A program made the position numbers and the translations under genes. Shown piece by piece: positions 58,537 to 59,189 of a stretch of DNA of 64,000 nucleotides. The notes below the pieces were generated by a model, which saw only the letters and a list, made by a program, of their open reading frames with translations, was not told the DNA's origin and did no database searches. Every line of letters starts with the position of its first letter. Positions within the stretch are counted from its first letter, which is position 1. The stretch is from positions 75,379 to 139,378 of the forward strand of contig CAMBEE010000003.1 in NCBI GenBank assembly GCA_945865665.1. Reading direction: 5' to 3'. Source of the DNA: an uncultured Clostridium sp. Lineage in GTDB: Bacteria; Bacillota; Clostridia; TANB77; CAG-508.

Positions 58537-58794
58537 ATGATTCAATGTTTGATAGATAATAAAATATGCCCTAATGGGAATAAAAAGTGTAAAGTATGTA
58601 AATTTGACAGTTGTGAGGAAGTGCTAGATATGATAGAAGAAGAGCAAAAATATAATGAAAAATGGAAATTAAAACAAATAAAGAGTGAATTACCAGAGCA
58701 GTGTAAAAACTGTTCTTTTTTAGAAATTACTAATCTAAGAGAAGGTAAAGTATTTTGTCCTTATAGGATTAAAGAGAGGTGCTTAATTAAATGA
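58537..58794 (+). CDS. Small Cys-rich (two CxxC-type clusters) protein. Upstream partner of the PemK-like gene.
   Basis: CPNGNKKCKVCKFDSC ... CKNCSF...CPYRIKERC. Stop overlaps the next start (ATGA). Confidence 0.4.
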   Translation: MIQCLIDNKICPNGNKKCKVCKFDSCEEVLDMIEEEQKYNEKWKLKQIKSELPEQCKNCSFLEITNLREGKVFCPYRIKERCLIK

Positions 58795-59189
58795 AATATA
58801 TACAAAAACCAGAAATAGGAGATATATGGGTTACAATAATTCCAAAAATAGAAACCTACAATAATAGAATATCAAATGTAATATTAGAAAGAAGACCGTG
58901 TTTAGTCATAGATGATGGACACGGTTTTATTATTGAAAAAAATAATGATTATTTAGGAATGAAAATAACAACCCAAAATAAGAAAAATAAAAAAGAAATA
59001 AGAAATTGGTATGATGTAGGATTAAAACAAAAATCTTATGTTCGTATAGAAATGCCAATAAAAATAGAAGAAAGTCAATTAGTAAAGAAGATAGGCAAAT
59101 TAAGTAAGTGTGATACTTATATTTATATAAATGAATTAATGAATTTTATGAATAATGATATAAAAGCTAAATTCGAGGATAGATTATGA
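58791..59189 (+). CDS. PemK/MazF-fold-like protein.
   Basis: N-terminal PEIGDIWVTIIPK...ERRPCLVI resembles the GDIW...RPVLVI motif of the Kid/PemK/MazF family. Confidence 0.35.
   Translation: MKYIQKPEIGDIWVTIIPKIETYNNRISNVILERRPCLVIDDGHGFIIEKNNDYLGMKITTQNKKNKKEIRNWYDVGLKQKSYVRIEMPIKIEESQLVKKIGKLSKCDTYIYINELMNFMNNDIKAKFEDRL

What the first reader, a model, noticed from the sequence alone, without database searches (positions are those of the whole stretch)
58537..59189. Overlapping two-gene cassette (Cys-rich 85-aa protein plus PemK/MazF-like 132-aa protein) immediately upstream of the terminase genes
The second protein begins KPEIGDIWVTIIPK...ERRPCLVI, reminiscent of the Kid/PemK/MazF toxin signature (GDIW...RPVLVI). 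The first is a small protein with two CxxC-type clusters, and its stop overlaps the next start (ATGA), which is the organisation of type II toxin-antitoxin or abortive-infection pairs. A zinc-ribbon partner instead of a MazE-type antitoxin would be an unusual pairing. It may be a phage-encoded exclusion, addiction or late-control module.
Basis: partly seen in the sequence, partly recalled or inferred. Interest (0 to 1): 0.6.

Follow-up and report, generated by a model that had tools for sequence, protein, structure and literature searches.

The report
Phage cargo gene: partnerless MazF-like RNase
The second gene is a real but divergent MazF/PemK-type RNA-cutting toxin carried as swappable cargo just before a prophage's DNA-packaging genes, and the cysteine-rich gene in front of it is a standard backbone gene of these phages, not its antitoxin.

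Summary
ORFs 58537..58794 (85 aa, 9 Cys) and 58791..59189 (132 aa) overlap by ATGA, upstream of terS/terL in a temperate Clostridia prophage.

The 132-aa protein belongs to the MazF/PemK superfamily:
- It passes Pfam PemK_toxin's curated cut-off, as do 51 of 56 relatives.
- Its family profile retrieves genuine PemK proteins from 1.84 billion sequences.
- The only columns invariant with E. coli MazF, B. subtilis EndoA and Kid are R35, P36 and T60, which correspond to MazF R29, P30 and T52.
- It is under purifying selection (dN/dS about 0.10).

The toxin-antitoxin pairing is not supported:
- Of 79 viral contigs found through the 85-aa gene, 2 have the MazF-like gene next to it.
- The others carry one of at least 12 unrelated genes, or terS directly, often with the same ATGA overlap.
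- Identical 85-aa proteins occur with and without the MazF-like gene, and the two genes diverge independently.
- A second phage group shows the same pattern (2 of 9).
- A distant branch in Bacilli/Mollicutes has a conserved 65-aa partner (30 of 35 loci). No phage-branch locus has it, and neither does this window.

Most likely this is a partnerless MazF-type RNase in a variable slot, made during lytic growth. Its function is inferred. Both structure predictions failed.

The parts
58791..59189 (+). 132-aa divergent MazF/PemK-family protein, a putative sequence-specific endoribonuclease. It is the variable cargo gene.
   Evidence: Pfam PF02452 scores 25.6 bits, above the 23.1 cut-off. phrog_1936 matches at 1.8e-8. 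51 of 56 relatives hit PF02452. hhalign against MazF/EndoA/Kid gives E 2.2e-5. R35, P36 and T60 are invariant and align to EcMazF R29, P30 and T52. The family profile retrieves bona fide PemK proteins. dN/dS is 0.10. It is a gene-sized indel relative to L123.
58537..58794 (+). 85-aa Cys-rich protein (9 Cys, probably metal-binding). It is a conserved backbone gene of this phage group, and its 3' end is the docking point of the variable slot.
   Evidence: No Pfam, PHROG, NCBIfam or PADLOC family matches. It occurs in 79 IMG/VR loci, 77 of them without an adjacent MazF-like gene. The Cys columns are conserved. dN/dS is 0.25. AF2 was uninformative at pLDDT 42.
58774..58781 (+). Shine-Dalgarno-like GAGAGGTG inside the conserved ...IKERC... 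codons of the 85-aa gene, 9 nt before the ATG of the cargo gene. Together with the ATGA overlap it would couple translation of whatever gene sits in the slot.
   Evidence: Read from the sequence. The same -4 overlap is used by 22 of 30 HExxH cargo genes and 8 of 9 copies of the 93-aa cargo gene. That it functions as a ribosome-binding site is inferred.
58417..58533 (+). Small Cys-rich peptide gene (39 aa in relatives, MSNEEIEQYKKENCSTCKKNIDCKITRRIDGKLICTEEE). In the window it lacks ATG/GTG/TTG and has GGAGGA followed by ATA.
   Evidence: It is a called gene in L003 and L005, and the window sequence is. It shares the motif CxxC..C.I[TR]..DG..C with the C-terminal half of the 85-aa protein and with the small Cys-rich genes that precede the MazF-like gene in other phages.
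59186..59224 (+). 12-codon remnant ORF (MNINKNIKDKTK*). It overlaps the MazF-like stop by ATGA and is a vestige of a 93-aa cargo gene (MNI[TN]KNINKL...) that follows the MazF-like gene in other phages.
   Evidence: Sequence. The full-length 93-aa gene follows the MazF-like gene in L001-L004 and L032, and it follows the 85-aa gene directly in 9 loci.
59225..59704 (+). Small terminase-like gene. It forms the right border of the variable slot.
   Evidence: Its position is directly before terL. The matches are weak: phrog_1206 terS at E 0.16 and phrog_23746 at 8.6e-12. In L123 the homologous gene follows the 85-aa gene directly.
56349..56825 (+). Putative late-gene transcription regulator upstream of the cassette (context only).
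   Evidence: phrog_36 transcriptional regulator matches at 5.1e-11, with a weak Sigma70_r4_2 match.

Best explanation
The locus is not a dedicated toxin-antitoxin pair. It is a variable cargo slot at the head of the packaging gene block of a temperate Clostridia prophage.

The 85-aa Cys-rich gene, and the 39-aa Cys-rich gene before it, are conserved backbone genes. The 3' end of the 85-aa gene supplies a ribosome-binding site and an overlapping ATGA start for whatever gene sits downstream. In this phage that gene is a divergent MazF/PemK-family protein with the catalytic Arg and Thr intact.

Inferred mechanism: the protein is a sequence-specific endoribonuclease. It is transcribed and translationally coupled with the packaging operon, so it would be made only during lytic growth, when a cognate antitoxin is dispensable. 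There it would cut host, early-phage or competitor RNA, giving host shut-off or exclusion. T4 RegB is a precedent for an antitoxin-less phage RNase of this kind.

Shown: family membership, conserved active-site residues, the cargo status of the gene, the absence of a conserved partner, and purifying selection. Inferred: RNase activity, timing of expression and the biological role.
For: MazF/PemK homology. In one search R35, P36 and T60 are the only columns invariant across this family, intermediate PemK proteins, EcMazF, BsEndoA and Kid. The EcMazF reference sequence was verified identical to PDB 3nfc_A.

Cargo status:
- 2 of 79 viral loci with the 85-aa gene have the MazF-like gene next to it.
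- At least 12 unrelated genes occupy the same position, many with the same 4-nt overlap.
- Homology to relatives breaks at 58797-58815, and the MazF-like ORF is a gene-sized indel relative to L123.
- The identical 132-aa protein sits in phages with a different terminase type.
- A second phage group with a different 53-aa Cys-rich backbone gene shows the same pattern, 2 of 9.

No conserved partner:
- The 65-aa partner is present in 30 of 35 loci of the branch at 55% identity or less. It is present in 0 of 29 phage-branch loci and is absent from the window.
- One phage lineage carries the gene alone inside the tail module.
- Divergence of the two genes is uncoupled.

The gene is functional: dN/dS is 0.10.

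Precedent for an antitoxin-less phage RNase: T4 RegB (PMC1702504).
Against: - No structural confirmation. The AF2 model of the 132-aa protein has pLDDT 59 and the fold search gave nothing significant.
- No sequence match to solved structures with the family profile.
- The timing of expression is not known. The promoter scan is no better than chance.
- In multi-gene slots the MazF-like gene is the first gene after the Cys-rich gene in 5 of 6 arrangements. That fits some functional coupling to the Cys-rich gene.
- An unlinked or host-encoded antitoxin cannot be excluded from a 64-kb window.
Confidence: 0.55

Rival explanations
1. This is a genuine type II toxin-antitoxin or abortive-infection pair. 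The 85-aa protein, and perhaps the 39-aa one, would be a zinc-ribbon antitoxin that binds and neutralises the MazF-like toxin.
For: - The two genes overlap by 4 nt, with the small gene first.
- In several phage lineages the gene immediately upstream of the MazF-like gene is a small Cys-rich protein (L021, L025-L029, L035, L036), often overlapping it.
- The MazF-like gene is first after the Cys-rich gene in 5 of 6 multi-cargo arrangements.
- Phage small proteins that bind and inactivate a MazF are known: phi3T AimX and YosL (PMC10769878).
Against: - 77 of 79 loci with the 85-aa gene, and 7 of 9 with the 53-aa gene, lack the MazF-like gene.
- Identical 85-aa proteins occur with and without it.
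- The same overlap is used with unrelated genes.
- The two genes do not co-diverge: MazF-like 100% identical with 85-aa 71%, and MazF-like 94% with 85-aa 100%.
- The gene occurs without any Cys-rich neighbour in a tail module, and behind an HNH gene in L032.
- The 85-aa protein matches no antitoxin or DNA-binding family.
- The small Cys-rich proteins share a motif, so their recurrence upstream is explained by conserved synteny.
Confidence: 0.12
2. The MazF-like protein is made in the lysogen and held in check by an unlinked antitoxin or host factor. It would serve as a prophage addiction, abortive-infection or superinfection-exclusion module.
For: MazF-family toxins are classically kept inactive by antitoxins, and prophages often carry defence morons (general knowledge). 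The distant branch of this family has a tightly linked 65-aa partner at the edges of prophages and conjugative elements.
Against: - There is no homologue of the 65-aa partner in the window or in any phage-branch locus.
- There is no PADLOC match.
- The gene lies co-oriented inside the late/packaging block, coupled to the upstream gene and with no promoter signal of its own above chance.
- The gene is swapped in and out among near-identical phages, which is hard to reconcile with dependence on an unlinked antitoxin.
Confidence: 0.15
3. The protein keeps the MazF fold but has a non-toxic role, for example RNA or DNA binding that assists packaging or late gene control.
For: It sits directly before terS in several unrelated phage backbones. 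It diverges from canonical MazF: the G-x-EQ loop is replaced and there is an extra C-terminal helix.
Against: - The catalytic Arg and Thr are invariant.
- Most relatives of these phages package without the gene, so it is dispensable.
- It also occurs in a tail module and, with a partner gene, in non-phage contexts.
Confidence: 0.1

Closest known systems
MazF/PemK/Kid/EndoA mRNA interferases (Pfam PF02452), toxins of type II toxin-antitoxin systems
   Same: The sequence-profile match is above Pfam's cut-off. The alignment covers about 105 residues. The Arg-Pro and Thr that align with E. coli MazF R29, P30 and T52 are conserved. The predicted order is beta strands followed by a C-terminal helix.
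   Different: - Only 15-21% identical to MazF, EndoA and Kid.
- The canonical G-x-EQ-x-G loop before the Arg is replaced by a longer segment.
- About 20 extra C-terminal residues.
- No MazE/PemI-type antitoxin gene next to it.
- It sits in a phage packaging operon rather than in an autoregulated two-gene operon.
PHROG 1936 / PHROG 35650 'MazF-like growth inhibitor' (phage moron category). One example is the 226-aa PemK/MazF-family protein annotated in Staphylococcus phage Hesat (PMC11018700).
   Same: These are phage-encoded MazF-like proteins catalogued as accessory genes.
   Different: The match covers only the first ~107 positions of a 188-position profile. No member of this exact family is in GenBank phage records or PLSDB plasmids. 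I found no functional study.
Bacteriophage T4 RegB
   Same: It is a phage-encoded, sequence-specific endoribonuclease with no antitoxin, used to inactivate mRNAs during infection (PMC1702504). This is the functional analogy proposed here.
   Different: RegB is an early gene of a virulent phage and is not a MazF homologue. The analogy is an inference, not a tested similarity.
Phage small proteins that inhibit MazF (phi3T AimX and YosL)
   Same: They are small phage proteins that bind and inactivate a MazF toxin (PMC10769878). This would be the model if the Cys-rich proteins were inhibitors.
   Different: Those proteins act on the host's MazF. I did not test for any sequence relation, and the distribution data here argue against a dedicated pairing.
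Sister branch of the same family in Bacilli/Mollicutes/Erysipelotrichaceae MAGs, with a conserved 65-aa upstream partner
   Same: The toxin-like protein is 36-51% identical and has the same invariant residues.
   Different: That branch has a tightly linked partner at a 0-6 nt gap (motifs KDCAxMLGLxLKEY and YDNSIL..LGL.EKDLK) in 30 of 35 loci. It lies at the edges of conjugative elements or prophages. The partner is absent from the window and from the whole phage branch.

Membership tests
MazF/PemK toxin superfamily (PF02452) | Profile match above the curated gathering score | tested here: met
   25.6 bits against a cut-off of 23.1, E 1.5e-5. 51 of 56 family members match at E <= 0.01.
MazF/PemK toxin superfamily (PF02452) | Reciprocal homology: the family's own profile finds accepted members | tested here: met
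   The A3 profile searched against 1.84 billion representatives gave 104 hits at E <= 1e-3. I sampled 10 of the weak-tail hits and all 10 are PemK_toxin above cut-off. hhalign against MazF/EndoA/Kid/SaMazF gives E 2.2e-5 and probability 76%.
MazF/PemK toxin superfamily (PF02452) | Catalytic Arg (EcMazF R29) and Thr/Ser (T52) conserved | tested here: met
   R35 and T60 are invariant in 56 relatives. Together with P36 they are the only invariant columns in the joint alignment with canonical proteins. That R29 and T52 are the catalytic residues is from my own knowledge of the MazF literature.
MazF/PemK toxin superfamily (PF02452) | SH3-like beta-barrel with a C-terminal helix, forming a dimer | tested here: inconclusive
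   The AF2 model has mean pLDDT 58.9. Its strand-then-helix order is compatible, but the Foldseek search of PDB gave no significant hit.
MazF/PemK toxin superfamily (PF02452) | Sequence-specific endoribonuclease activity and growth inhibition | not testable with these tools
   This needs expression and cleavage assays.
Type II toxin-antitoxin module (85-aa protein as antitoxin) | Small adjacent co-oriented gene, typically overlapping | tested here: met
   ATGA overlap at 58791-58794. The same overlap joins the 85-aa gene to unrelated genes.
Type II toxin-antitoxin module (85-aa protein as antitoxin) | The two genes co-occur as a conserved pair across genomes | tested here: not met
   2 of 79 loci found through the 85-aa gene carry the MazF-like gene. 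In a second phage group the figure is 2 of 9. The MazF-like gene also occurs with other neighbours.
Type II toxin-antitoxin module (85-aa protein as antitoxin) | Partner proteins share evolutionary history (co-divergence) | tested here: not met
   MazF-like 100% identical with 85-aa 71%. MazF-like 91% with 85-aa 59%. MazF-like 94% with 85-aa 100%.
Type II toxin-antitoxin module (85-aa protein as antitoxin) | Antitoxin has a recognisable DNA-binding or antitoxin domain (MazE/AbrB, RHH, HTH, Phd and similar) | tested here: not met
   No Pfam, PHROG, NCBIfam or PADLOC family matches the 85-aa protein or its 28 relatives. AF2 was uninformative.
Type II toxin-antitoxin module (85-aa protein as antitoxin) | Direct neutralisation of the toxin by the partner | not testable with these tools
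   This needs co-expression or binding assays. No multimer prediction was available.
Known anti-phage defence systems (PADLOC-DB) | Match to a defence-system protein model | tested here: not met
   No hits for either protein at E <= 1.
Type III toxin-antitoxin (ToxIN-like, RNA repeat antitoxin) | Tandem repeat array next to the toxin gene | tested here: not met
   Only low-complexity A-rich micro-repeats in 56800..59800. No Rfam family other than a tRNA.

The most novel reading that the evidence does not exclude
The phage branch of this family would be an antitoxin-free MazF endoribonuclease that temperate Clostridia phages use as a weapon or gene-expression switch during lytic growth. It is spread as a plug-in cassette behind a conserved tiny zinc-ribbon gene. 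A less likely variant: the ubiquitous small Cys-rich proteins are generic metal-dependent inhibitors of MazF-type RNases.
Probability: 0.25. Interest if true: 0.6.

Novelty: new member of a known kind. Interest (0 to 1): 0.3.

Why it matters
The result corrects a plausible misannotation. An overlapping small gene plus a MazF-like gene looks like a toxin-antitoxin pair, but comparative data show a backbone gene followed by a swappable cargo gene.

It defines a divergent, uncultured-only MazF/PemK subfamily with two lifestyles. In Bacilli and Mollicutes it is partnered with an unannotated 65-aa protein. In Clostridia phages it has no partner yet is strongly constrained. If the partnerless form is an active RNase, it would show how phages use toxin folds without antitoxins.

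It also marks a recombination hotspot between a tiny Cys-rich gene and terS. That slot collects accessory genes: an HExxH protease-like gene, a ParB-like gene, HNH genes and the MazF-like gene. All of this is modest in scope, because phage MazF-like morons are already catalogued.

Tried and rejected
- **AF2 of the 132-aa protein** (56-sequence alignment) gave pLDDT 58.9, and Foldseek against PDB found nothing significant. It cannot be used as a fold test.
- **AF2 of the 85-aa protein** (44 sequences) gave pLDDT 42 and is unusable.
- **Family profile against PDB sequences:** no hit at E <= 1.
- **NCBIfam and PADLOC:** nothing meaningful.
- **GenBank phages (INPHARED) and PLSDB plasmids by tblastn:** no relatives of either protein.
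- **Link between the nearby tRNA-Gln and the RNase** (a replacement-tRNA idea): rejected. tRNA-Gln, Pro, Ser, Met and Val vary upstream in carriers and non-carriers alike.
- **Type III (RNA repeat) antitoxin:** no repeat array.
- **Homologue of the 65-aa partner in the window:** none.
- **Downstream 93-aa gene as the partner:** rejected. It is truncated to 12 codons here and occurs without the MazF-like gene in 9 loci.
- **Backbone status of other upstream neighbours:** scans for the tail-module 86-aa, the L036 68-aa and the L029 76-aa proteins found no further relatives in IMG/VR, so I could not test them.
- **Cleavage-site avoidance analysis:** considered and not run. The recognition motif is unknown, and the gene is exchanged among near-identical phages too quickly for avoidance to evolve.
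- **Literature searches:** no functional study of phage MazF-like morons turned up.

Full report
**1. Observation**

The window's right end is a temperate prophage. In order it carries:
- an integrase (43161..44291, minus strand);
- a CI-like repressor (45350..45871, minus strand);
- replication genes;
- a putative late regulator (56349..56825);
- tRNA-Gln (57519..57593);
- several small genes;
- a terS-like gene (59225..59704);
- terL in two pieces (59704..61045);
- the portal gene and a minor head protein gene.

One runs 58537..58794 (85 aa, nine Cys) and the other 58791..59189 (132 aa), and they overlap as ATGA. Both have many homologues in gut and rumen metagenomes and in Clostridia MAGs. 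Both are under purifying selection, with median NG86 dN/dS of 0.10 and 0.25. They are real genes.

**2. The 132-aa protein is a divergent MazF/PemK family member**

- Pfam PemK_toxin matches above its curated cut-off (25.6 against 23.1 bits, E 1.5e-5).
- PHROG 1936 'MazF-like growth inhibitor' matches at 1.8e-8.
- 51 of 56 relatives hit PF02452 when scanned individually.
- A profile of the family was searched without a word index against 1.84 billion representative proteins. It found only about 10 strong representatives, so the family is compact. It also found a weak tail of hits at E 1e-6 to 1e-3. I sampled ten of these and all ten are PemK_toxin proteins above cut-off. The homology therefore holds in both directions.
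- hhalign against E. coli MazF, B. subtilis EndoA, Kid and S. aureus MazF gives E 2.2e-5 over 105 columns. The E. coli sequence was checked and is identical to PDB 3nfc_A.
- I made a joint alignment of the window protein, four relatives, six intermediate PemK proteins and three of the canonical proteins (MazF, EndoA and Kid). The only invariant columns are R35, P36 and T60. They align to E. coli MazF R29, P30 and T52, which from my knowledge of the MazF literature are the catalytic Arg and Thr.

The family differs from canonical MazF in three ways:
- it has a longer segment in place of the G-x-EQ loop;
- it has about 20 extra C-terminal residues;
- its identity to canonical MazF proteins is low (15-21%).

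Structure prediction did not help. The AF2 model has pLDDT 58.9. Its strands-then-helices order is compatible with MazF, but Foldseek gave no significant hit. The family profile also finds no solved structure by sequence.

**3. The 85-aa protein is a backbone gene, not a dedicated partner**

It matches no family in Pfam, PHROGs, NCBIfam or PADLOC, and AF2 failed at pLDDT 42.

The distribution data are decisive:
- Searching IMG/VR with the 85-aa family returned 79 phage loci. An HMM scan of all ORFs shows that only 2 of them (L069 and L124) have a MazF-like gene next to it.
- The position directly downstream holds at least 12 unrelated genes. These include a ~120-aa HExxH protein in 30 loci (weak Peptidase_M78/SprT and phage metalloprotease matches), the MazF-like gene in 13, a 93-aa protein in 9, and several other small proteins. 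They also include a ParB-like protein, an HNH endonuclease, and terS directly (L123).
- The conserved last codons of the 85-aa gene (..AAA GAG AGG TGC..) form a Shine-Dalgarno-like GAGAGGTG 9 nt before the downstream ATG. So the 3' end of the backbone gene acts as a docking point for cargo. That it works as a ribosome-binding site is inferred.
- 85-aa proteins 100% identical to the window's occur without the MazF-like gene, for example L070, L072 and L075.
- DNA homology to those phages stops at 58797-58815.
- Relative to L123 the window has a gene-sized insertion. Homology runs over 58523-58796 and resumes at 59185-59444.
- The two genes do not co-diverge. The MazF-like protein is 100% identical where the 85-aa is 71% (L001), 91% where it is 59% (L024), and 94% where it is 100% (L022).
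- The identical 132-aa protein also sits in phages with a different terminase type, Terminase_2/Terminase_3.

**4. The same pattern appears elsewhere**

I classified the upstream neighbour of the MazF-like gene across all the loci where the gene was found.

| Branch (identity to window) | Hosts / context | Upstream neighbour |
|---|---|---|
| 55% or less | Bacilli, Mollicutes, Erysipelotrichaceae MAGs; edges of conjugative elements and prophages | Conserved 65-aa non-Cys protein, 0-6 nt away, in 30 of 35 loci |
| 55% or more | Phages | The 65-aa protein in 0 of 29 loci |

The 65-aa protein carries the motifs KDCAxMLGLxLKEY and YDNSIL..LGL.EKDLK, and that arrangement looks like a genuine toxin-antitoxin module. 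An HMM of the 65-aa protein finds nothing in the window.

In phages the upstream neighbour is one of the following:
- the 85-aa protein;
- another small Cys-rich protein (L021, L025-L029, L035, L036);
- an HNH gene (L032);
- a tail-chaperone-position gene inside a tail module (L012-L015, L033, L034).

The small Cys-rich proteins share a loose motif, CxxC...C.I[TR]...DG..C. The 39-aa peptide and the C-terminal half of the 85-aa protein share it too. They are therefore probably one family of tiny metal-binding backbone proteins that keep the same position, between the late regulator and terS.

I tested this in one further phage group. The 53-aa Cys-rich gene of L025 occurs in 9 IMG/VR loci. Only 2 of them carry the MazF-like gene. 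The others have terS directly, an HNH gene or a ParB-like gene.

One observation still fits some coupling. Where the slot holds several genes, the MazF-like gene is first after the Cys-rich gene in 5 of 6 arrangements.

**5. Mechanism**

Shown:
- the gene encodes a constrained MazF-family protein with an intact catalytic dyad;
- it is exchangeable cargo behind a conserved gene;
- no conserved partner gene accompanies it in phages.

Inferred:
- It is an endoribonuclease co-transcribed and translationally coupled with the packaging operon, so it would be made during lytic growth, when an antitoxin is unnecessary.
- There it would cut host, early-phage or competitor RNA.
- T4 RegB is a precedent for an antitoxin-less phage RNase (PMC1702504).
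- The promoter scan is uninformative, so timing is untested.

The rivals are a genuine Cys-rich antitoxin, a lysogen-expressed toxin held by an unlinked antitoxin, and a non-toxic role for the fold. Each is listed with what would refute it. The antitoxin rival has a conceptual precedent in phi3T AimX and YosL, which inhibit the host MazF (PMC10769878).

**6. Comparison and novelty**

This is a new, divergent member of a known superfamily in a known kind of place, a phage moron slot. PHROGs already lists 'MazF-like growth inhibitor' families, and Staphylococcus phages carry annotated PemK/MazF genes (PMC11018700).

I found no relatives in GenBank phages or in PLSDB plasmids. I also found no functional study.

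What remains mildly interesting is the partnerless but strongly constrained phage branch, set against the partnered sister branch.

**7. Verdict**

- Observation: confirmed.
- Interpretation: partly supported. The MazF-like call is right, and the toxin-antitoxin pairing is not.
- Interest: 0.3.
- Novelty: new member of a known kind.

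Noticed in passing
window 59704..61045: The large terminase is split into two overlapping ORFs. The first is 59704..60156 (150 aa, ending ...IIDEASRC*) and the second is 60137..61045 (302 aa). The same split, with synonymous changes around GAT GAR GCN TCN CGG TGT TAA, is present in L069 (93% identical). GenBank PQ006095.1 annotates 'large terminase (x2)'. This points to a conserved +1-type frameshift or a truly split TerL rather than a sequencing error.
   Followed up: partly
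window 58417..58533: A conserved Cys-rich peptide gene lies directly before the 85-aa gene (39 aa in L003 and L005). In the window it has no ATG/GTG/TTG start. A GGAGGA box is followed 6 nt later by ATA.
   Followed up: partly
window 57953..58305: A block of about 470 bp holds a 44-aa plus-strand ORF and a convergent 73-aa minus-strand ORF (phrog_28292, unknown function). It is inserted between a conserved leader (57909..57961, 100% identical to L092) and the 39-aa gene. This looks like a separate moron on the opposite strand.
   Followed up: no
window 57519..57593 and relatives (L073, L077, L082, L092, L100 and others): The non-coding stretch between the late regulator and the small Cys-rich genes is a variable tRNA slot. 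It holds tRNA-Gln(UUG) here and Pro, Ser, Met, Val or nothing in related phages. tRNA content does not correlate with the MazF-like gene.
   Followed up: yes
window 59186..59224: A 12-codon remnant ORF (MNINKNIKDKTK*) overlaps the MazF-like stop by ATGA. It is the N-terminus of a 93-aa cargo gene that follows the MazF-like gene in L001-L004 and L032. It is a scar of modular recombination.
   Followed up: yes
L006-L011, L016-L020, L038-L059 (gene immediately upstream of the MazF-like match): A sister branch of the family in Bacilli/Mollicutes/Erysipelotrichaceae MAGs is tightly linked to a conserved, unannotated 65-aa protein (KDCAxMLGLxLKEY ... YDNSIL..LGL.EKDLK) in 30 of 35 loci. It lies at the edges of conjugative elements or prophages. 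This is probably an undescribed MazF-type toxin-antitoxin family.
   Followed up: partly
L071 988..1350 and 29 other loci: The commonest cargo behind the 85-aa gene is a ~120-aa HExxH protein (HELVHVWLYEYGH). It has weak Peptidase_M78/SprT-like and phage metalloprotease matches.
   Followed up: partly
window 58695..58716: A terminator-like hairpin plus T-run (AGAGCAGTG-TAAAAA-CTGTTCT TTTTT) lies inside the 85-aa gene, over the conserved CxxC codons. It could be chance or an attenuator.
   Followed up: no
L001 2664..3954: The other terminase type found next to the identical MazF-like gene is also called as two ORFs, Terminase_3 (173 aa) and Terminase_3C (226 aa), separated by 89 nt.
   Followed up: no
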